This document shows, piece after piece, positions 5,043 through 54,074 of a stretch of 64,000 bases of DNA. The DNA is taken from assembly GCA_963768175.1 (NCBI GenBank), contig CAVYGQ010000001.1:254305-318304 (forward strand), read 5' to 3'. Source of the DNA: Candidatus Doudnabacteria bacterium (GTDB taxonomy: Bacteria; Patescibacteriota; Doudnabacteria; UBA920). The translations under genes and the position numbers were made by a program. The stretch's first letter is position 1. Each line of letters opens with the position of its first letter. The notes beneath the pieces were generated by a model. The model did no database searches. It had not been told where the DNA came from and saw nothing but the letters and a program-made list of their open reading frames with translations.

Positions 5043-5726
5043 ATGAAAATAGATTACCAACCAAAATCCCAGCTTGAAAAGTTTGGCAAAAAAATTATTG
5101 ATTTGCTTGTGGACAACTTCCCGCAAACTTTTTTTGTTGGCGGCATGGTCCGAGACTTGCTACTAGGCAAAATTTTAACTGATATTGATATCGCGACACA
5201 AGCAACGCCTTCGGAAGTCATAAAGTTGCTAACCAATAACAATGTTGTCTGCGATGGCGCGTACAGCCTTTTTGGAATAGTTGTGGCAAAAAGAGGGCGC
5301 TATAAAATTGAAATCGCCACTTTTCGCAAAGACTTGCCAAGCAAAAACAGATACCCAAAAATTTGTTTTGTAAAAAACTTAAAACAAGATAGTAACCGCC
5401 GCGATTTTACTATAAATGCCTTATATTTAAGCCCGAAAAGTGGAAGAATCCTGGATTTCCATCAAGGATTGAAAGATTTAAAATTGAAGCTCTTAAAATT
5501 TATCGGCAACCCGGAAAAACGGATTAAAGAAGACCCTTTAAGAATAATCAGAGCTTTGCGCTTTGCGCAAACTTTAAACTTCAAGTTGGATGGCAGGGCG
5601 AAAAATGCCATGGAGAAAAATTTTCCACTTGTAAAAACTTTGACGAAATCGCGGATAAAAAATGAGTTAGAAAAAATCGCAAACCTAAATCATAAAAAAA
5701 TCATTTTAAACATAATGGGTAAATAA
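5043..5726 (+). CDS. tRNA nucleotidyltransferase/poly(A) polymerase family protein (head domain only, 227 aa)
   Basis: GGMVRD, DIDIAT (DxD) and RRDFTINA motifs of class II CCA-adding enzymes; unusually short. Confidence 0.7.
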   Translation: MKIDYQPKSQLEKFGKKIIDLLVDNFPQTFFVGGMVRDLLLGKILTDIDIATQATPSEVIKLLTNNNVVCDGAYSLFGIVVAKRGRYKIEIATFRKDLPSKNRYPKICFVKNLKQDSNRRDFTINALYLSPKSGRILDFHQGLKDLKLKLLKFIGNPEKRIKEDPLRIIRALRFAQTLNFKLDGRAKNAMEKNFPLVKTLTKSRIKNELEKIANLNHKKIILNIMGK

Positions 5727-6380: not shown

Positions 6381-6545
6381 GAAGAGAGGAATTGCACCTC
6401 TGACCTTGGGCTTACTTGCCCGCCCACCAAATTTGAGGCGTTTAGAAAGGTTTTTTTGGTAGCGGGAAGAGGAATTGCACCTCTGACCTTGGGCTTACTT
6501 GCCCGCCCACCAAATTTGAGGCGTTTAGAAAGGTTTTTTTGGTAG
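6381..6545 (-). repeat. tandem direct repeat of about 82 bp (two copies plus a third fused to a tRNA-like sequence) carrying a tRNA 3'-half-like segment
   Basis: agaggaattgcacctctgaccttgggcttacttgcccgcccaccaaatttgaggcgtttagaaaggtttttttggtagcgggaag repeated; the minus-strand reading contains AAGCCCAAGGTCAGAGGTGCAATTCCTCTTCCCGCTACCA. Confidence 0.8.
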
Positions 6546-6617
6546 CGGGAAGAGGAATTGCACCTCTGACCTTGGGCTTATGAGTTCCCACGCTCTAACT
6601 AACTGAGCTATCCCGCC
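6540..6617 (-). other. tRNA-like sequence (78 nt) with good acceptor, D and T stems but a non-canonical anticodon arm
   Basis: GGCGGGATAGCTCAGTTAGTTAGAGCGTGGGAACTCATAAGCCCAAGGTCAGAGGTGCAATTCCTCTTCCCGCTACCA; the anticodon stem does not pair canonically and the T-loop is TGCAATT. Confidence 0.4.
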
Positions 6618-16806: not shown

Positions 16807-17226
16807 ATGAAATTTTTTAACCAACTTTTTAAACGACTTTTTGGTAATAAACAATCTAACTTTGACGGCATTATTGCCGCCAAAGTTTTAGAAATACAAA
16901 AACACCCTAACGCGGACCGCTTAAGGATTGTAAAAGTTGATGCCGGAGATAAAATAATAGAGCCGATTGTATGCGGCGCGTTTAACTTTGACGCCGGCGC
17001 TATGGTAGCTTTGGCCTTGCCCGGGGCGAAAATCGCCCAAGACATCCATTCGCCTGACCACCAACCATTCGTATTGGGAAAAGCCAAAATTCGCGGCGTA
17101 GAGAGCCAAGGAATGATCTGCGCGGCCTTTGAACTCGGTCTCGCCAAAGAGCCCGGGCAGGGGATTATGCTGTTAAAAGATAATATTACGCCGGGTAGCA
17201 CATTTTCTCCCGAAATGGTAAAATAA
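16807..17226 (+). CDS. tRNA-binding domain protein (EMAP/Myf/CsaA-type OB fold, as in the PheT N-terminus)
   Basis: KVLEIQKHPNADRLRIVKVDAGD...VCGA...RGVESQGMICAAFELG. Confidence 0.7.
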   Translation: MKFFNQLFKRLFGNKQSNFDGIIAAKVLEIQKHPNADRLRIVKVDAGDKIIEPIVCGAFNFDAGAMVALALPGAKIAQDIHSPDHQPFVLGKAKIRGVESQGMICAAFELGLAKEPGQGIMLLKDNITPGSTFSPEMVK

Positions 17227-17318
17227 TTTAACTATATGACCTCACTTTGGGTATCAATAATAACTTTCGTTTTGCTAACCCTGTTATATTGGTGGAGGCC
17301 TGGGAAAAAATAATTTTT

Positions 17319-18461
17319 ATGACTGAGAATATTGTTATTTCAACCACGGAAGAAAACCGTTTAAAAAAAGAACTGGAAAAACGCACCGACTTTGAGGCTC
17401 AGCGCATAAGGCGGTATTTAAGCATGCCGGATTTGTCGCGCACCCCTGGACACCCACTTTATGAAATTGTCCAGCGAATCTTAAATTGGCCTTATTTTAA
17501 AGACTTGGATGTAATCGAAGTACCGGAAATTGTTCCTGCCAATATAAGTTTTGATTTATTTGATTTTCCGGCAGACCATCCTGCCAGAAGCAAGTCAGAT
17601 ACTTATTACGTTGATGAAAAAAATATTTTGCGCACCCATACAACCGTAATGTGGTATTATTATCTGCGGGACGAAAAAATCAAAAAACGCATGGCTGCCG
17701 ACGAACCGGTCGGCTGTTTCAGTTTTGGCAAAGTTTATCGCAAGGACGAGATAGACCGATATCATATGAATGTTTTTCATCAAATTGATGGCTGGTATCT
17801 TGCGCCGAAAGACAAAAAAGTTATTGGGATAGACATTTTAAAAGAAGCTTTGTCAAATTTTGCACAAGCTGTTTTTGGAACAGATGTCCAAGTACGCTTT
17901 AACAAAGATACGTTCCCATATACTGATCCTTCTTTGGAAATGGAAGTGAAAAAAGGCGATCAATGGTTGGAAGTAGCCGGAGCCGGTGTAGTAAAAGGAA
18001 GTGTTTTGGAAAAATTCGGCGTTGATTCTTCAAAATGGAACGGCTGGGCTTTTGGGCCGGGCATAGAACGTTTTGCGCTTATTTCGATAGACTTGCCGGA
18101 CATCCGCCTATTATGGTCAACCGACCCAAGAGTAACCAAGCAATTACATCTTGGACAAAAATTTGTGGAAGTCAGCAAATACCCGCCAATTACCCGCGAT
18201 ATATCTTTTGTTGTCGGCAGCGATTTTGTGCCCAACAACTATTTTGACCTAATCCGCGACATTGGCGGCGACCTTGTGGAGCAAGTGAAGCTTTTGGATA
18301 AGTACCAGGACGAAAAAAAGTTCGGTCCGGGAAAAGTCAGCTATACCTACCGCGTGGTCTATCGCAGTCCCGAACGGACGCTGAAAACCGATGAAGTTGA
18401 GCCCTTGCAAAACAAGCTTTACGAGCAAACCAAAGAGCAATACAACGCCCAATTACGATAA
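17319..18461 (+). CDS. pheS: phenylalanine--tRNA ligase alpha chain with a C-terminal FDX-ACB anticodon-binding domain (monomeric, mitochondrial-type architecture)
   Basis: Class II catalytic core (FPADHPARS, RTHTT, GWAFGPGIERFA), then YPPITRDISFVV ... GKVSYTYRVVYRSPERTLKTDEV, which resembles the FDX-ACB domain normally found at the PheT C-terminus. Confidence 0.8.
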   Translation: MTENIVISTTEENRLKKELEKRTDFEAQRIRRYLSMPDLSRTPGHPLYEIVQRILNWPYFKDLDVIEVPEIVPANISFDLFDFPADHPARSKSDTYYVDEKNILRTHTTVMWYYYLRDEKIKKRMAADEPVGCFSFGKVYRKDEIDRYHMNVFHQIDGWYLAPKDKKVIGIDILKEALSNFAQAVFGTDVQVRFNKDTFPYTDPSLEMEVKKGDQWLEVAGAGVVKGSVLEKFGVDSSKWNGWAFGPGIERFALISIDLPDIRLLWSTDPRVTKQLHLGQKFVEVSKYPPITRDISFVVGSDFVPNNYFDLIRDIGGDLVEQVKLLDKYQDEKKFGPGKVSYTYRVVYRSPERTLKTDEVEPLQNKLYEQTKEQYNAQLR

Positions 18462-18531: not shown

Positions 18532-18570
18532 AAATATCCCTCTTATTTAAGAGGGATATTTTATATTTTA
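18532..18570 (+). terminator. intrinsic terminator after pheS
   Basis: aaatatccctctta/taagagggatattt palindrome followed by a T-rich tract. Confidence 0.6.
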
Positions 18571-35083: not shown

Positions 35084-37507
35084 GTGCGGAAACTTTTTTT
35101 ACAAATTGAAGATAAAATTAATTTACGGCCAAACTCTGCCGCCGCAGTTATTTTAAGCTTGCTGGTTTTAATTTTTATTTCACCCTCGTTTTTTCAAGGA
35201 CGCTTTTTGGCGCCGGTGGATACCACCCATTACGTGGCGCCGTATTTGGATATAACCACCCAGATGCTGCCGTGGTGGAAACTTTCCGGTGAGCTGGTCA
35301 AATCCGGCCATTTGCCGTTTTGGAACATTTTTTCCGGCAACGGTTTGCCTCTTTTAGCCAATATGCAGTCCGCGGTTTTTTTTCCGCTAACCTGGCTGTT
35401 TTATATTTTTAACGTCCGTTTCGCGCTGGATGCTTACGCGTTTTTAAAATTGCTTTTGATGGGTTTGCTTACCTATTTTTATTTGCGCGAACTGAAATTA
35501 AAGTATTACCCCTGTTTGCTCGGGGCAATTTTATTCGCTTTTTGTAATAGCAACGTCATCTGGTTTTTATGGCCCCTGACTTCGGTAATTTTAATTTTGC
35601 CTTTATCGTTTTTCCTGCTGGAGCGGTATTTTAATACTCGCGATATTAAAACCGCCTTCTGGCTTGCGCCAGTAACGGCTTTGGGTTTATTTGCCGGGCA
35701 CCCGCAAACCTTTTTTTATATTTTTTGCGCGATTTACGGCTATACGGTATTTAAATCGTTTTTCTTTGGCCAAAACTTAAGACAGGGGACTTACAAATTA
35801 ATTTTACTCTCGGCAATTTACCTCCTCGGCTTTATTATGTCCGCATTGGCGGTTTTGCCGTTTTTGGAATATTTAAAGCTAAGCGCCAATTTAAATTACC
35901 GCGCAGGCTTTACCGAAAACCCGTTTTATTTGCAGCCGCTGGTATTTTTGGCTAATTTAATTCCGGATTTTTACGGCAATACCGGCGTAAAAAACTTCAG
36001 CTATTTGCTGGTGCCGAATTACGGCGAACTGGCGCTGGGCTACATTGGCATTAGCGGTTTTATAATGGCACTGTTCGCCTTTGGCAAAAAGATGCGAAAA
36101 CAGATCTGGTTTTTCATTATCCTCGCGGTCTTTTGCTTATCCTTGATTTATCACGCGCCGATTATTTATTTTCTGATAAATAAATTTCCCGGTTTTAACC
36201 TGAATTACAATAACCGCCTGCTGTATTTATGGGCGTTTTGCGGCTCGGTGCTGGCGGCTTTCGGCTTGGAAAATTTGCTTGATAACAAAATTTGCCGCAA
36301 ACGCCTGAACTGGACCTTTGCCGGTTTTGCGATTTTTTCGTTGATTTTTATCGTGGCCAATAAAATTGCCACCAGACATTGGCAGTTCGCGCATAATCTT
36401 AACTGGCACACGGTCAGCCTGTGGCAAGACGCGCTAATTATTGCTTTTTTTGCCAACCTTCTGGTGGCGTATTTGATAATCAAAACTGCGGTTGCTTCGC
36501 CAAATAATAGTGTTCGACCAAGTGGAGAACCTATTATTTGGCCTGGTGACAAAAATATCTTCTCCACAAAGCCTGCCCTAAGCTTGCCGAAGGGGTCGAA
36601 GAATATTTTTGTTTTTCCCAAACTTTCCTTCCTTATGCTTTTTTTACTGATTATCATCGAAACCACCATCCACGGCATGATCTTTATGAAAACTTCTAAA
36701 CCGGCTAATTTTTACCCCAACGAGCCGGCCTTAAATTATCTGCAAAACCAGTATCCTCAAAATTTTTACCGGGTTTTTACTTATGGCGACAATTTACTGC
36801 CCAACATCGGCACCCGGTACCATATTAACGAGCTCAACGACCACGACACCATCTATTTAACCAGCAACAAACAGCTTAAGGCGGCGGTGGGCGATTACAA
36901 CTATTCGCCGGAATATACTTTTAGCGACCCGAATTTTAACGCCTTGCGCTTTTTAAGCGTAGGGTACTTGCTTTATCCCGCGCAGCAAGGCTTGGATTTT
37001 TTAAAATTCCACGCGGCCGATTTAAGTTTGGCTTTTAGCGATAATAATTACGCCGTATTAAAACTGAATAACCCCTTGCCCAGGGCTTTTACCATTAAAG
37101 CTTCCGATACTAATGATTTAATAACCAAACTGGCCGGTTTGCAAAACGGCAAAAATCTAAACTTGATAATACCAGCCGTAGGTTTTAGCATTTTGGAAGA
37201 CGGCGCGGAAAATATTGTCTATAACGCGCCCTCAGGCAGTTACTTGGTAACCACCGATAATTACTATCCCGGCTGGTTTGCGAAAATTGACGGTCGGCGC
37301 ATTCCGGTGCAGAATGTAATGGGCTTAAGGGCCGTGGCCGTCCCAGCAGGGAAGGGCAGCATTAAAATTGGTTATCATCCCAAAAACTACGCCTATGGCT
37401 TAGGCTGGAAATTATCGCTGGCCGCGGTTTTGCTTTGGCTTTTACTATACCTTTGGCTATCAAAAACTAACCATAAACCAAAACAAGCCGCTTTACCCAA
37501 TTTATGA
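35084..37507 (+). CDS. YfhO-family membrane protein
   Basis: About 800 aa, many N-terminal TM helices, conserved HLPFWN motif, C-terminal TM anchor. Confidence 0.65.
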   Translation: MRKLFLQIEDKINLRPNSAAAVILSLLVLIFISPSFFQGRFLAPVDTTHYVAPYLDITTQMLPWWKLSGELVKSGHLPFWNIFSGNGLPLLANMQSAVFFPLTWLFYIFNVRFALDAYAFLKLLLMGLLTYFYLRELKLKYYPCLLGAILFAFCNSNVIWFLWPLTSVILILPLSFFLLERYFNTRDIKTAFWLAPVTALGLFAGHPQTFFYIFCAIYGYTVFKSFFFGQNLRQGTYKLILLSAIYLLGFIMSALAVLPFLEYLKLSANLNYRAGFTENPFYLQPLVFLANLIPDFYGNTGVKNFSYLLVPNYGELALGYIGISGFIMALFAFGKKMRKQIWFFIILAVFCLSLIYHAPIIYFLINKFPGFNLNYNNRLLYLWAFCGSVLAAFGLENLLDNKICRKRLNWTFAGFAIFSLIFIVANKIATRHWQFAHNLNWHTVSLWQDALIIAFFANLLVAYLIIKTAVASPNNSVRPSGEPIIWPGDKNIFSTKPALSLPKGSKNIFVFPKLSFLMLFLLIIIETTIHGMIFMKTSKPANFYPNEPALNYLQNQYPQNFYRVFTYGDNLLPNIGTRYHINELNDHDTIYLTSNKQLKAAVGDYNYSPEYTFSDPNFNALRFLSVGYLLYPAQQGLDFLKFHAADLSLAFSDNNYAVLKLNNPLPRAFTIKASDTNDLITKLAGLQNGKNLNLIIPAVGFSILEDGAENIVYNAPSGSYLVTTDNYYPGWFAKIDGRRIPVQNVMGLRAVAVPAGKGSIKIGYHPKNYAYGLGWKLSLAAVLLWLLLYLWLSKTNHKPKQAALPNL

Positions 37508-45365: not shown

Positions 45366-45938
45366 ATGGAATTAAATACAATATTTTTCATTGGACCGCA
45401 AGGAAGCGGCAAAGGCACGCAGGCAAAAATTTTGGCCAAGCGTTTGGATTTTTTCTATTGGGAAATGGGGGGGATTTTGCGCGAAGTGGCGGCAGGGGAT
45501 ACCATTTTGGGCATTAGGATTAAAAACTTGATAGATTCCGGGGTGCTTTTGCAAGATGACGATTTATACCAGGTGGTAAAAATGCGCCTTGGCGAAATCC
45601 CAAAAACCAAGGGGGTAATTTTTGACGGGATCCCCAGGCGCCTCGGACAGGCGGAATTCTTGCTTGATTTCCTAAAAAAGCAGGGGAGAGATAATTTTAC
45701 GACCCTTTATGTAAGTTTGCCGCGCGAGGAATCGCTGGCCCGCCTGCTTAAACGCGCCGAAACAGAAAAGCGCGCCGACGACACAAAAGAAAAAATAGAG
45801 TTTCGACTCAAGCAATACGAGGAAGAAACATTGCCGGTTTTGGATTTCCTAAAGCAAAATTCCCAATTTTTTGAAATTGACGGGACACCATCGATTGAAG
45901 AAGTGGTAAAAAAAATTAGCCAGACTTTGGGTCTGTAA
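45366..45938 (+). CDS. adk: adenylate kinase (short form)
   Basis: GPQGSGKGTQA P-loop; NMP-binding and short LID regions. Confidence 0.85.
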   Translation: MELNTIFFIGPQGSGKGTQAKILAKRLDFFYWEMGGILREVAAGDTILGIRIKNLIDSGVLLQDDDLYQVVKMRLGEIPKTKGVIFDGIPRRLGQAEFLLDFLKKQGRDNFTTLYVSLPREESLARLLKRAETEKRADDTKEKIEFRLKQYEEETLPVLDFLKQNSQFFEIDGTPSIEEVVKKISQTLGL

Positions 45939-45973
45939 ACAATAGGCACCGTTGTGCTATACAACGGTGCCCA

Positions 45974-46609
45974 TTGTGTAAAAAAATGTTTATGAATAAA
46001 ATGGGTTCGCAACCATTAAATATCATTCTTCTGGGTGACCCAGCGTCCGGGAAAGCCACTCACGGCGCGTTTTTGGCCAAAAAGTACCGGCTTTACGATT
46101 TGGACATGGGTAAGGAATTGCGCTCGCTGGAGCACAACCTCCCGCTGCGGAAAAAATACCGGCTGAATAAAACCTTGGACAGCGGCAAACTTACGCCCAC
46201 GGAATTGGTCAGAAACCTGCTGCACGACAGAATTCACTCTACCGAAAAAAAACGCGGCATCCTTTTTGACGGCACACCCAAAATGCTGGGAGAGGCCAAG
46301 CTGGTGGCCAAATGGCTTAGGCAGGAAAAGCGCAATCGTGTGCTTTTTATTTATTTGTCCATACCGATACAGGAAACCATCCGCCGCATGACAAGCCGCA
46401 AAACTTATTTTAAAGGAAAGTTCTCCAAAAGGCCGGACGACAACGGCAAAGCTTTAAAAAACCGGATTGCTTACTACAAAAAAAATATTACGGAAGTCGT
46501 GGCATTTTTCAAAAAACATTATCCATTTATAAAAATTTCGACCATGGGCAGCATACCGGAGGCAAGAGAAAGATTAAAAGAAAAGCTGCAAAATTTTAAT
46601 ACCGATTAA
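45974..46609 (+). CDS. adenylate kinase-family paralogue (divergent P-loop GDPASGKAT)
   Basis: Collinear with Adk but P-loop altered; start could be an internal Met (45986/45992). Confidence 0.6.
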   Translation: MCKKMFMNKMGSQPLNIILLGDPASGKATHGAFLAKKYRLYDLDMGKELRSLEHNLPLRKKYRLNKTLDSGKLTPTELVRNLLHDRIHSTEKKRGILFDGTPKMLGEAKLVAKWLRQEKRNRVLFIYLSIPIQETIRRMTSRKTYFKGKFSKRPDDNGKALKNRIAYYKKNITEVVAFFKKHYPFIKISTMGSIPEARERLKEKLQNFNTD

Positions 46610-50565: not shown

Positions 50566-53500
50566 TTAATTCACATCCACCATATCTATCTGCGGAATCA
50601 GCCGCAATTTCGTCATCAGTTCGTTACTCATCGCCACTTGCGACTGGGTTTTTATTTTTTTTGCCCCCAAACCCGAGCCGACCGACAAATAAACCTGGAC
50701 GTTGCCCGGATGGGTTTGCAAAATATTTTTTATCTTGTTTAAAACATCTTTTTCGGCCAACGCCGACATATGCAAAACCACCTGCCGCTTTTTTTCCATT
50801 TGGCTCAGCGCCGTTGTGTATAAGTCGTCGTTCGGAAGCTCCGTAATTGTGTCCGCGATTAATTTAAACTCCTCGTCCTTGTCGGAAAGCCGGCCGGTAA
50901 CCTGCACAATTTTATCGTTTTCCAAAAACGGCAAACTTTTTTCCATGACTGTGGGGAAAACCAATACCTCTATGCTGCCGGTGAAATCTTCCAGGATAAA
51001 AAAGGCCATTGGGTCGTTCTTGCGCGTTAAAGTCCTCTTCATGCGGGAAACAATGCCCCCCATGACCACGTTTGCCCCAAGCTCGTCCAAAGTCAGGCTT
51101 TTAACCGTCCTTAAAGTAGCCAGCACTTTGCCGTAAGCATCCAGTGGATGCGCCGAAACATACATGCCCAAGTGCTCTTTTTCCCAAAGCAATTTTTCCT
51201 CTTTGGTGGCCGCCACAGATTCCCTTAATTTTAGTTTGCCGGCCTGCAAAGATTTGCCGAACAGGGAGTTTTGGCCGCTGGCTTCATTTTTAAAATGCTG
51301 CCGCACGAAGTCCAAAACTTCTTCGGTGTTATTAAGCAGCTGGCCGCGTTCGCCAAAAGCATCCAGCGCTCCGGCCTTAACCAAAGCTTCCCAGGACTTT
51401 TTGTTAAGATTTTTGGTATGAGATTTTATAAGGAAGTCTTCAAGGGATTGGAAATCGGCTTGGCCGGAAGTCGGACTTGATGAATTTTCCGATTTTCCGA
51501 TTTTCCGATTTTCCGATCTAACCTGTATAATCTTCTCTATCACATCGCTCCCCAAATTTTTAATCGCGTTTAGGCCAAAGCGGATAGTTTTGTCATCAAC
51601 TACGGTAAAATCGCCGAGCGATTCGTTTACATCCGGCGGCAAAACGGCAATACCCAAAGCCTGGCAGTCTTCCACGGCTTCGTAAATTTTTTCTTCGTCA
51701 CCGGACTCCGCGGTCATAAGCGCGGCCATAAATTCCACCGGAAAATTGGCCTTCATATAGGCGGTTTGGTAGCTGACAATGGCATACGAAGCCGAGTGCG
51801 CCTTGTTAAAACCATAAGCCGCAAACGGCTCTATCCACGTCCAAATTTGCGTAGCCTTTTCAAAGCTCCATTTGGAAGTTTCCTGGCAGCCCTGGATAAA
51901 CTTAATTTTTTGCTTGGCCATTTCCTCGGGAATTTTTTTGCCCACGGCTTTGCGGAACTTGTCCACCTCTTCCCAGGTATAGCCGGCCAAATCGTGCGCA
52001 ATAGTCAAAAGATCATCCTGGTAAACCAGCACCCCGTAAGTCCGGGAAAGGATTTTTTCCAGCGCCGGATCAAAGTATTTTATTAATTTTGGGTTGTTTT
52101 TGCGGGCAATGTACTCGGGAATAAACTGCATCGGACCAGGGCGGTAAAGCGCTATCATGGCCATAATGTCAAAAATTGACGACGGCTTGAGTTCGCGCAA
52201 ATACCGCGTCATGCCCGAAGAGCCCAGCTGGAACACGCCAAAAGTTAAACCCTCCGATAACAATTTAAAAGTTTTCGGGTCGGGATGGGGGAGATTGTAA
52301 ATATCTATCTTCACGCCGTGGCGCTGCTCCGTCATTTTTACCGCTGATTCCAGAATGCTAAGGTTGCGGATACCCAACAAATCCAGCTTGACCACGCCCA
52401 AAGCTTTGCCGTTGGCGTTAACGTCCAAAGCGTACATATCGTACTGGGTAATAATTCTTTCGCCGTCCGGCTCTTTTTGCAGCGGCATATAGTCGGTAAG
52501 GACGGTTGGGGTAATCACGATTCCGGCGGCGTGCATGGAGGCGTGGCGCGCGCAACCTTCCAGTTTTTTGGCGATTTCCAAAACGTGCCGGGTCTCCGGA
52601 TCATGGTCATAAATTTCCTTGAGCTCCGGACTTTTTCCCAAAGCCTTGTCCAAAGTCATTTGGAAACCCTGCTTGCCCAATCGGGATCATTTTGGCAATT
52701 TGGTCGCACTTGGAATAAGGCACGGCCAGCGCGCGGCCGGCATCGCGCACCGCGGCGCGCGCGGTCATGGTGCCAAAAGTAATAATTTGCGCGACTTTAT
52801 CTTTGCCGTAGTGTTCGGTAATATATTCTATGACCTCGTCACGGCGGTTGTCGGCAATATCCAAATCAATATCGGGCGGGGTGGGGCGATGCATGGTTAA
52901 AAAACGCTCAAACGGCAATTCATAATAAAGCGGGTCAACGTTGGTAATGCCCAAAATGCGCCCGACAATACTGCCGGCGGCGCTGCCCCTGGTGTTGGTA
53001 ATGGCGCCGATGTCATGCGCTCCCGCTACCACATCGGCCACCATTAAAAAATAAGTGTCAAAACCTTTTTTACAGATAATGTTCAGCTCGTAATCTATGC
53101 GCTGCTTGATGTCTTCGGGCAGGCGGCCGCTTTGGCCGTAAAGCGGCAACGCTTTTTCATAAGTAATCTTTTTAAGATATTCTTCGGATGTTTCGCCTTC
53201 CGGAATTTTAACTTTGGGAAAATATCGTCTGGTTAATTAATATTTCCAAATCGCACAGGTCGGCGACTTTTTGGGTGTTTTCCAAAGCTTCGGGCAAATC
53301 GGAAAACAGTTCCCACATCTTTTCCGGCGATTTTAAGGAAAGCTCGTAGCCGCGCATATCCAAACGGTCCTGGTCGTTTACCGTGCGTCCCGTGCCAATA
53401 CAAACCAGCACGTCCTGGGCCTCGGCGTCCTCGGGATAGATATAATGGCAGTCGGCGGTGGCGACAATGCCAAGATTATTCTTTTTGGCCAGAGCGATTA

Positions 53501-54074
53501 GTTTTTGGTTCAATTCTTCTTCCTTTGGATCTTTTGACTTGCTGTTTCTCTGAATTTCAATAAACAGCTTCTCGGGTCCAAAAATGTCCAAATATTTTCC
53601 CAAAACTTTTTGCGCCTCGGTTTCGGACTTGTTTGTTACCGCGCGCGCGATTTCCCCGCGCTGGCAACCGGACAGGCAAAGCAACCCTCCAGAGTGCTGT
53701 TTTAACAAAGCAAGGTCTATTCTCGGCTTATAATAAAACCCGCGTAAGTGGGCCTCGGTGGTGAGCTTGATTAAATTTTTATATCCGGAGTTGTTTTGGG
53801 CGAGCAAAATCAAATGATGGTAGTCCGCGTCCACCCTGCCTTCCTTTTCCTCCATGCCGCGCGGCGCTATGTAGGCTTCCAGCCCGACAATGGGTTTTAT
53901 TCCGGCTTCCCTACACTTGTTGTAAAATTCAATTGTCCCGTACATCACGCCGTGATCGGTAACGGCCAGCGCTTCCATACCGAGCTCTTTGGCGCGTTCA
54001 ATCAGCGGGTCAATTTTTGACAACCCGTCAAGCAGGGAATAATGGGAGTGGCAATGGAGATGGGTAAAGGTCAT
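50566..54074 (-). pseudogene. dnaE: DNA polymerase III alpha subunit (dnaE) interrupted by two apparent frameshifts (ORFs 53208-54074, 52607-53149(-53237), 50566-52680)
   Basis: PHP domain (HLHCHSHYSLLDG), palm/fingers, OB domain in three consecutive frames; shifts at about 53213-53224 (tattttcccaaa) and about 52650-52680 (cagggtttcc). Confidence 0.8.

What the first reader, a model, noticed from the sequence alone, without database searches (positions are those of the whole stretch)
16807..18461. Mitochondrial-type monomeric PheRS architecture: PheS catalytic core fused to an FDX-ACB anticodon-binding domain, preceded by a free-standing tRNA-binding OB-domain gene
The pheS product is about 380 aa and ends with a domain (YPPITRDISFVV…GKVSYTYRVVYRSPERTLKTDEV) matching the ferredoxin-fold anticodon-binding domain normally found at the C-terminus of the beta subunit PheT, and in monomeric mitochondrial PheRS. 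Immediately upstream is a separate 139-aa EMAP/CsaA-type tRNA-binding protein, which resembles the PheT N-terminus. No pheT follows pheS in this window. This suggests a minimal PheRS lacking the large beta subunit and its editing domain.
Basis: partly seen in the sequence, partly recalled or inferred. Interest (0 to 1): 0.6.

Follow-up and report, generated by a model that had tools for sequence, protein, structure and literature searches.

The report
Single-chain mitochondrial-type PheRS in a CPR bacterium
This small-genome (Patescibacteria/CPR) bacterium encodes a one-piece phenylalanyl-tRNA synthetase built like the human mitochondrial enzyme, next to a small tRNA-binding helper gene, and probably lacks the large editing subunit that other bacteria have.

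Summary
ORF 17319-18461 (380 aa) is a complete PheS class II core joined end-to-start to a PheT-type FDX-ACB anticodon-binding domain. Its closest solved relative, in sequence and in predicted fold over the full length, is human mitochondrial PheRS (3CMQ). ORF 16807-17226 (139 aa) is a free-standing homolog of the B2 OB-fold domain of PheT.

The fused gene is one per locus and more conserved than the neighbouring GyrB. It keeps the PheRS catalytic and Phe-pocket motifs, and it occurs in thousands of Patescibacteria sequences from at least 328 GTDB species. The B2 gene accompanies it only in a Doudnabacteria-like subclade. In eight diverged protein clusters it is fused in-frame, giving B2-core-ACB.

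No PheT editing or B5 remnant was found in the window or in 1.29 Mb of related loci.

Best reading (about 0.65): this is the housekeeping PheRS, it has no editing domain, and the B2 protein assists tRNA binding.

The decisive test, whether pheT is absent from the whole 949-kb genome, could not be run with these tools. One paper notes PheRS-beta genes in some CPR lineages. I found no published description of a bacterial single-chain PheRS.

The parts
16807..17226 (+). Free-standing 139-aa tRNA-binding OB-fold protein, homolog of the B2 domain of bacterial PheT
   Evidence: Pfam tRNA_bind 6.3e-18. NCBIfam pheT_bact positions 41-151, 5.4e-33; YtpR 89.6 bits, below its cutoff of 100. Best PDB relatives are PheT B2 domains 4p71_A and 3pco_B. 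About 626 homologs, the top 120 all standalone at 134-181 aa.
17319..18461 (+). Single-chain PheRS gene (380 aa from ATG 17319; the mechanical ORF starts at TTG 17247, 404 aa)
   Evidence: AF2 pLDDT 93.8. Best fold match is human mitochondrial PheRS 3CMQ.
17445..18143 (+). Class IIc catalytic core (PheS-alpha type) with motifs 2 and 3 and the Phe pocket
   Evidence: Pfam tRNA-synt_2d, residues 67-299 of the 404-aa ORF. Motifs HPARS, LRTHTT, VYRKDEID..H...FHQIDG, FPYTDPS and GWAFGxGxER are conserved across the CPR family.
18174..18458 (+). FDX-ACB (PheT B8-type) anticodon-binding domain fused to the C-terminal end of the core
   Evidence: Pfam FDX-ACB, residues 310-404, 3.2e-23. Aligns to PheT residues ~692-791. 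Thirteen positions of this domain are invariant or nearly invariant across CPR, phage-like and FARS2-like sequences.
18532..18561 (+). Terminator-like hairpin (13-bp stem plus T run) after the synthetase gene and before gyrB. No such site lies between the two genes, which fits a two-gene transcription unit.
   Evidence: consensus scan only, not proof of function.

Best explanation
The pair is the organism's phenylalanyl-tRNA synthetase system. The 380-aa protein is a single-chain, PheRS-M (mitochondrial-type) enzyme. Its class II core activates Phe with ATP, and its C-terminal FDX-ACB domain reads the tRNA-Phe anticodon, swinging on the short linker between a closed and an open state as in human mtPheRS (inferred by homology). 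It has no B3/4 editing domain, so Tyr-tRNA-Phe cannot be cleared in cis. The upstream 139-aa B2-type OB-fold protein is a lineage-specific tRNA-binding accessory, co-transcribed with the synthetase, that works in trans. In a sister lineage it works in cis as an N-terminal domain. It likely increases tRNA affinity in place of the lost beta subunit and alpha coiled coil (inferred). The gene most simply arose from a pheS-pheT operon by an in-frame deletion removing the pheS stop codon and PheT residues 1 to about 690. Shown here: the architecture, fold, motif conservation, distribution, synteny and fusions. Inferred: monomeric state, Phe specificity, the role of B2, and absence of a beta subunit from the genome.
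For: Architecture and fold. The alpha alignment reaches the alpha C-terminus and the PheT alignment starts about 4 residues later. The catalytic and Phe-pocket motifs are kept, including the positions equivalent to E. coli T251 and A294, whereas true SrmL paralogs (P0258, P0231) have altered them. The family is very large (more than 6,500 clusters at E<1e-10; at least 328 GTDB species, one locus per assembly among the best 80). It is more conserved than GyrB in the same genomes (median 70% vs 62% identity, 58 pairs). It sits in a housekeeping neighbourhood, with gyrB downstream in 61 of 81 loci. No PheT B3/4, B5 or B6/7 remnant was found in the window or 80 related loci (1.29 Mb). pheS and pheT are normally adjacent in bacteria (general knowledge). 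The B2 gene lies directly upstream in 25 of 80 related loci as well as in the window, and is fused in-frame in 2 more loci. Eight diverged clusters (66-72% identity) have the B2-core-ACB form. There is no terminator-like site between the two genes, and a hairpin follows them.
Against: The whole 949-kb genome could not be searched, so a beta subunit or a canonical pheST pair elsewhere is not excluded. With only about 2% of each related genome sampled, finding no pheT is weak evidence (about 1.5 expected if pheT were randomly placed). Mukai et al. 2017 state that many CPR PheRS-beta lack B2, so beta subunits exist in some CPR lineages. The protein scores below the curated cutoffs of both pheS_mito (232 vs 258) and pheS (172 vs 237). 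In a rough tree its nearest non-CPR relatives include SrmL and an Oligoflexia 'hypothetical protein' that are probably not housekeeping enzymes. Two pocket positions differ from E. coli (FPF to FPY, HQxE to HQxD). About 50 related loci have no B2 gene within 10 kb, so B2 is not required by the enzyme in general.
Confidence: 0.65

Rival explanations
1. Accessory paralog. The genome has an ordinary pheS-pheT pair elsewhere, and this fused protein is an extra PheS-related ligase with another role, like the NCBIfam 'SrmL mystery ligase' or the copy in an Oligoflexia MAG.
For: Its best NCBIfam hit by score is SrmL (243.5 bits). SrmL and the Oligoflexia protein group with the CPR clade in a rough NJ tree (77% support). 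CPR PheRS-beta genes are reported in the literature. NCBI annotates these proteins as 'hypothetical protein'.
Against: It scores below the SrmL cutoff of 300, and it keeps the PheRS pocket motifs that true SrmL members have changed. Conservation above GyrB, very wide distribution with one locus per assembly among the best 80 hits, and fixed housekeeping synteny are unusual for an accessory gene in a genome under 1 Mb.
Confidence: 0.15
2. Reshuffled hetero-oligomer. A residual beta subunit (B1, B3/4, B5, B6/7, without B2 and B8) is encoded elsewhere and still assembles with this alpha-B8 fusion. The domains would then have moved between chains, and editing would not have been lost.
For: Mukai et al. 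2017 note that B2 is missing from many CPR PheRS-beta, which would fit B2 having become a separate gene.
Against: No such gene lies near the fused gene in 81 loci, although pheS and pheT are normally adjacent. The predicted fold matches the closed monomeric mtPheRS over its full length. The in-frame fusions join B2 to the alpha-B8 chain, not to a beta-like chain. The cited example accession probably comes from a different CPR class (my inference from the accession range).
Confidence: 0.12
3. A single-chain synthetase with shifted amino-acid specificity (e.g. toward a Tyr-like or modified aromatic substrate), not a standard PheRS.
For: The second aromatic residue of the FPF pocket motif is Tyr throughout the CPR clade, and the motif-2 Glu is Asp.
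Against: HQxD also occurs in many FARS2-like sequences that pass the pheS_mito cutoff. The specificity-determining T and A positions are unchanged. The organism needs a PheRS, and no other candidate was seen.
Confidence: 0.05

Closest known systems
Mitochondrial phenylalanyl-tRNA synthetase (FARS2 / yeast MSF1; 'PheRS-M' in AARS Online; PDB 3CMQ, 3TUP; TIGR00469)
   Same: It has the same two-module chain: the PheS core runs to its natural C-terminus, followed by a short linker and FDX-ACB. There is no N-terminal coiled coil and no editing domain. It is the best sequence and fold match over the full length, and the linker motif DIRL(L/F)W and the ACB residues are shared.
   Different: It is bacterial and chromosomal, with no presequence, and it lacks the insertion that splits the core alignment in eukaryotic proteins. 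It scores just below the TIGR00469 cutoff. It forms its own clade, not nested in the FARS2 group in a rough tree. It has FPY instead of FPF in the pocket. It is accompanied by, or fused to, a B2 OB-fold domain that FARS2 lacks.
Canonical bacterial (alpha-beta)2 PheRS (PheS TIGR00468 + PheT TIGR00472)
   Same: The catalytic core, the B2-like protein and the B8-like domain are each homologous to parts of PheS and PheT.
   Different: No Phe_tRNA-synt_N coiled coil was detected, and no B1, B3/4, B5 or B6/7. B8 is on the alpha chain and B2 is a separate gene upstream. No pheT is adjacent.
SrmL, 'PheS-related mystery ligase' (NCBIfam NF051887)
   Same: Same overall core + ACB layout, and bacterial. 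It is the highest-scoring NCBIfam model for the window protein.
   Different: The window protein is below the cutoff (243.5 vs 300). True members (P0258, P0231) have NPG[QR]S, HPYT and GLALG where the CPR protein keeps HPARS, FPYT and GWAFG.
Trans-acting or appended tRNA-binding OB-fold domains (Trbp111, CsaA, YgjH, YtpR, Arc1p/EMAPII, MetRS C-terminal domain; TapR and B2-TyrRS fusions in CPR)
   Same: The 139-aa protein belongs to the same tRNA_bind fold family. Such domains are known to act in trans or as appended domains to raise tRNA affinity (general knowledge; B2-TyrRS fusions in CPR are described in PMC5370408).
   Different: Its sequence is closest to PheT B2, not to CsaA, YgjH or Trbp111. 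It is below the YtpR cutoff and lacks the YtpR N-terminal half. Its partner here is a PheRS.

Membership tests
PheRS-M (mitochondrial-type single-chain PheRS, TIGR00469 / PDB 3CMQ) | Class IIc PheS-type catalytic core with intact motifs 2 and 3 and the Phe pocket | tested here: met
   Pfam tRNA-synt_2d 2.8e-55; motif comparison.
PheRS-M (mitochondrial-type single-chain PheRS, TIGR00469 / PDB 3CMQ) | FDX-ACB anticodon-binding domain on the same chain, directly after the core | tested here: met
   Pfam FDX-ACB 3.2e-23 at residues 310-404; junction mapped from the PDB alignments.
PheRS-M (mitochondrial-type single-chain PheRS, TIGR00469 / PDB 3CMQ) | Full-length fold like human mtPheRS | tested here: met
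   AF2 pLDDT 93.8; Foldseek 3CMQ E 4.2e-36, TMq 0.78, 388 columns, whereas bacterial alpha subunits match the core only.
PheRS-M (mitochondrial-type single-chain PheRS, TIGR00469 / PDB 3CMQ) | Score at or above the curated TIGR00469 cutoff (258.35 bits) | tested here: not met
   232.1 bits. A 59%-identical relative, P0121, passes with 264.3.
PheRS-M (mitochondrial-type single-chain PheRS, TIGR00469 / PDB 3CMQ) | Works as a monomer without any beta subunit; it is the only PheRS of its compartment or genome | not testable with these tools
   Only the window and +/-10 kb of related loci could be read, and no pheT was found there.
Bacterial PheS alpha subunit (TIGR00468) | Score at or above the cutoff (237.45), an N-terminal coiled-coil domain, and an adjacent pheT | tested here: not met
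   171.6 bits. No Phe_tRNA-synt_N in the Pfam scan. gyrB, not pheT, lies downstream.
SrmL PheS-related mystery ligase (NF051887) | Score at or above 300 bits and SrmL-type pocket motifs | tested here: not met
   243.5 bits. The motifs differ from those of true members P0258 and P0231.
PheT beta subunit (TIGR00472), for the 139-aa ORF | Full-length beta with B1-B8, including B3/4 editing and B5 | tested here: not met
   Only profile positions 41-151 of 798 match, at 114 bits against a cutoff of 402. It is a B2-domain homolog only.
YtpR family tRNA-binding protein (NF045760), for the 139-aa ORF | Score at or above 100 bits across the 185-position model | tested here: not met
   89.6 bits, matching only positions 66-185.
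CsaA / YgjH / Trbp111-type free tRNA-binding proteins | Sequence membership (e.g. NF007492 cutoff of 150 bits) | tested here: not met
   27.2 bits. YgjH 3ers E 1.5e-4, compared with PheT B2 at 4.6e-15.

The most novel reading that the evidence does not exclude
A large part of the Patescibacteria (Paceibacteria-type lineages and Doudnabacteria) has replaced the otherwise universal bacterial (alpha-beta)2 PheRS with a single-chain enzyme that has no editing domain and was thought specific to organelles. One subclade has re-recruited the PheT B2 domain as a trans-acting or fused tRNA-binding module. Together with the related copies in other bacteria and on a huge-phage-like contig, this would define a prokaryotic gene pool from which mitochondrial FARS2 could have been acquired.
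Probability: 0.5. Interest if true: 0.75.

Novelty: new variant of a known kind. Interest (0 to 1): 0.6.

Why it matters
Reviews describe three forms of PheRS: bacterial (alpha-beta)2, archaeal/eukaryotic cytosolic (alpha-beta)2, and a monomeric organellar form (e.g. PMC3275996, listed). If the one-chain form is the housekeeping enzyme of a major bacterial radiation, four things follow.

1. The beta subunit and its editing site are dispensable in free-standing cells, not only in organelles.
2. These bacteria must tolerate Tyr and m-Tyr misacylation or control it in another way.
3. The unresolved origin of mitochondrial FARS2 becomes testable with prokaryotic relatives.
4. Marker-gene sets that rely on TIGR00468/TIGR00472 (such as bac120, from my own knowledge of that marker set) and KEGG-style surveys will misjudge these genomes. 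JGI labels the 139-aa B2 protein 'PheRS beta chain', and NCBI labels the synthetase 'hypothetical protein'.

The compact enzyme is also of practical interest as a one-gene PheRS.

Tried and rejected
**Access to the source genome**
- I looked up the exact proteins, but only a 1.7-kb Logan contig was returned, and GyrB was not on record.
The source genome is not a GTDB representative: the best hit was 80% identical.

**Searching for pheT**
- The 807-aa ORF 35084-37507 looked like a possible pheT by size, but it has no Pfam domain and sits among glycosyltransferases.
- No conserved neighbour resembling a beta remnant was found.
- A permissive phmmer search with E. coli PheT residues 150-690 gave only noise on GyrB.
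- The Mukai et al. supplement, which might have held a CPR PheRS-beta sequence, is not available.

**Literature**
- Ten searches were made (SrmL; monomeric or mitochondrial-type PheRS with CPR, Patescibacteria or Parcubacteria; pheT; AARS Online; PheRS + CPR).
- None describes a bacterial single-chain PheRS. The papers I opened were irrelevant except PMC5370408.

**Other dead ends**
- SrmL membership was rejected on both score and motifs.
- The 612-aa ORF in L068 has no extra domain and is just an upstream ORF extension.
- The IMG/VR scan with the phage-like relative found nothing, and BFVD has no close counterpart.
- The AFDB50 fold library was unavailable.
- The AF2 model of the three-domain fusion did not give a confident position for B2 (pTM 0.73 vs 0.89), so no docking geometry is claimed.

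Full report
**What is in the sequence**

Two same-strand ORFs sit between a pilin-like/UvrD block and gyrB.

ORF 16807-17226 (139 aa) is a tRNA_bind OB-fold protein (Pfam 6.3e-18). Its best curated match is the B2 segment of bacterial PheT (pheT_bact profile positions 41-151, 5.4e-33). It falls below the YtpR cutoff and scores far below the CsaA/YgjH-type models. Its closest solved relatives are the B2 domains of Pseudomonas and E. coli PheT.

The second ORF is 404 aa from a TTG at 17247. Homologs are 378-380 aa, so the start is taken as ATG 17319 (380 aa). It contains a PheS-type class II core (2.8e-55) followed by an FDX-ACB domain (3.2e-23). In the PDB alignments, bacterial alpha subunits align up to their last residues (query about 300 in the 404-aa numbering) and PheT aligns from query about 304, corresponding to PheT ~692 to its end. 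The protein is therefore a complete alpha core joined almost directly to the B8 domain of beta. That is what an in-frame deletion inside a pheS-pheT operon would give (inference).

**Similarity to the mitochondrial enzyme**

The best solved relatives by sequence are human mitochondrial PheRS entries (3.6e-55, against about 1e-36 for bacterial alpha). An AF2 model built on 36 homologs is confident (pLDDT 93.8, pTM 0.89). It superposes on 3CMQ, the closed state of human mtPheRS, over 388 columns (TM 0.78). Bacterial alpha subunits cover only the core (TMq about 0.55), and the open tRNA-bound state 3TUP gives 0.58. No N-terminal coiled-coil domain was detected.

**Is it still a PheRS?**

Across more than 100 CPR homologs the functional motifs are nearly fixed:
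- HPARS and LRTHTT;
- motif 2, VYRKDEID..H...FHQIDG;
- the pocket motif FPYTDPS;
- motif 3, GWAFGxGxER, including the positions equivalent to E. coli T251 and A294.

Two differences from E. coli stand out. FPF becomes FPY, which is specific to the CPR clade. HQxE becomes HQxD, which also occurs in many FARS2-like proteins.

The top NCBIfam hit by score is 'PheS-related mystery ligase SrmL', but at 243.5 bits against a cutoff of 300. pheS_mito gives 232 against 258, and pheS gives 172 against 237. I identified true SrmL members among the distant relatives (P0258 at 359 bits, P0231 at 376 bits). They carry NPG[QR]S, HPYT and GLALG at the sites where the CPR protein keeps the PheRS residues. The window protein is therefore not SrmL.

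**Distribution and selection**

The fused protein has more than 6,500 relatives at E<1e-10. The best 120 are 71-100% identical (71-92% apart from the exact protein itself), and those that carry a taxon name come from Patescibacteria (Doudnabacteria, Liptonbacteria, Paceibacterota). NCBI calls them 'hypothetical protein' and JGI calls them 'PheRS alpha chain'.

The best 80 are one locus per assembly, labelled Doudna-, Yanofsky-, Zambryski-, Vogel-, Nomura- and Giovannonibacteria, Paceibacterota and others. The exact protein lies on a 949,077-bp contig, so the source is a small genome.

Compared with the window, the fused protein is more conserved than the adjacent GyrB in the same genomes (median 70% vs 62% identity, 58 pairs). 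gyrB follows it in 61 of 81 loci. An 811-kb contig of a relative shows the same gene order as the window: UvrD, membrane protein, pilin-like protein, B2, PheRS, gyrB, greA, lysS, serS. This is the profile of a core, single-copy informational gene.

**The upstream B2 gene**

- It lies directly upstream in 25 of the 80 related loci as well as in the window, all among the closest relatives. It is fused in-frame in two further loci (507 aa).
- About 50 loci with enough upstream sequence lack it within 10 kb.
- The family is correspondingly smaller: 626 hits, the top 120 all standalone. JGI names these 'PheRS beta chain'.
- The three-domain form B2-core-ACB occurs in eight clusters that are only 66-72% identical to the query, so it is an established fusion and not an artefact.
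- No terminator-like site separates the two genes in the window, and a 13-bp hairpin with a T run follows them.
- AF2 models the fusion with good local confidence but lower pTM (0.73), suggesting a tethered and not a rigidly docked B2.

Adjacency plus fusion link B2 functionally to this synthetase. Its role as a tRNA-affinity module is inferred from what is known of Trbp111/Arc1p-type domains.

**The missing beta subunit**

The window holds lysS, serS, cysS and thrS but nothing like pheT. E. coli PheT matches only the B2 ORF and the ACB domain in the window and in all 80 related loci. A permissive search with PheT residues 150-690 over all ORFs in 1.29 Mb found nothing better than E 0.6. Because pheS and pheT are normally adjacent, this counts against a beta subunit.

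The evidence is still weak as a genome-wide statement. Only about 2% of each genome was sampled, and I could not read the rest of any genome.

[quoted passage not shown] The example cited is probably from another CPR class (my inference from the accession range). This keeps two rivals alive: an accessory paralog alongside a normal pheST pair, and a reshuffled hetero-oligomer with a residual beta encoded elsewhere.

**Relatives outside the CPR**

An exhaustive search of 1.84 billion cluster representatives found only 241 clusters at E<=1e-30. They fall into four groups:
- the CPR group;
- a few other bacterial proteins, such as an Oligoflexia MAG protein in a non-housekeeping context;
- SrmL;
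- a large set of eukaryote-like FARS2 proteins together with compact 337-372-aa proteins that pass the pheS_mito cutoff.

One of the compact proteins lies on a 340-kb contig full of phage-like genes. A rough NJ tree with one outgroup puts the CPR clade (100% support) with the other bacterial proteins (77%) and apart from the FARS2 and compact group. This tree is indicative only.

**Literature**

Ten full-text searches found no description of a bacterial or CPR single-chain PheRS. AARS Online lists PheRS-M with FARS2 as its example, and none of the PheRS passages retrieved from it mentions bacterial members.

**Verdict**

The architecture is a new bacterial variant of the mitochondrial-type PheRS, with a B2 module in trans or in cis. 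That it is the sole PheRS and works without any beta subunit is the best-supported reading (about 0.65) but remains unproven.

Noticed in passing
window 50566-54074 (-): dnaE (DNA polymerase III alpha) is broken into three consecutive ORFs: PHP domain (53208-54074), the first part of the NTPase domain (52607-53149), and the remainder with finger, HHH and OB domains (50566-52680). This could be frameshifts or sequencing errors, a pseudogene, or a genuinely split gene.
   Followed up: partly
window 6540-6617 (-): ARAGORN reports a tRNA with an undetermined two-base anticodon. Reading the sequence gives a CAT-anticodon tRNA (Met or Ile2 type) with an A-G mismatch closing the anticodon stem. Rfam scores it as a tRNA at 53 bits.
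   Followed up: partly
L084 10001-11047 (ENA contig GROS21-1_SAMEA9560610_METAG-scaffold_19, 340,874 bp): A compact 348-aa single-chain PheRS (core + FDX-ACB, passing the pheS_mito cutoff) lies on a 340-kb contig. Its neighbours are mostly small unknown ORFs plus PhageMetallopep, PcfJ and SNF2-helicase genes. It looks like a huge phage carrying its own one-gene PheRS. IMG/VR and BFVD showed no close match.
   Followed up: partly
L040 9608-11131 and L047 9608-11131; proteins P0404-P0410, P0092: A natural three-domain PheRS (tRNA_bind B2 + core + FDX-ACB, 504-520 aa) occurs in eight diverged clusters.
   Followed up: yes
proteins P0258, P0231 (metagenomic): True members of NCBIfam SrmL ('PheS-related mystery ligase') share the core + ACB layout but have replaced the pocket and motif residues (NPG[QR]S, HPYT, GLALG). 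This points to a different substrate.
   Followed up: partly
window 35084-37507 (+): An 807-aa ORF with no Pfam match, between a family-2-like and a family-4 glycosyltransferase, close to two PMT_2-like membrane glycosyltransferases.
   Followed up: no
window 45366-46609 (+): Two adjacent adenylate-kinase-family genes (190 and 211 aa) in a genome under 1 Mb.
   Followed up: no
window 5043-5726 (+): A short (227 aa) PolyA_pol head-domain protein next to the tRNA cluster, possibly a truncated or split CCA-adding enzyme.
   Followed up: no
L083 (NCBI GCA_034680565.1, contig JAXOUH010030583.1, 811,108 bp): A close relative with the same gene order as the window sits on an 811-kb contig whose number (030583) suggests a very large assembly. 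It may be a CPR genome embedded in a host or bulk assembly.
   Followed up: no
public annotations of the two gene families: JGI names the 139-aa B2 protein 'phenylalanyl-tRNA synthetase beta chain' and the fused protein 'alpha chain', while NCBI names both 'hypothetical protein'. Automated surveys would therefore either count both subunits as present or miss PheRS altogether.
   Followed up: yes
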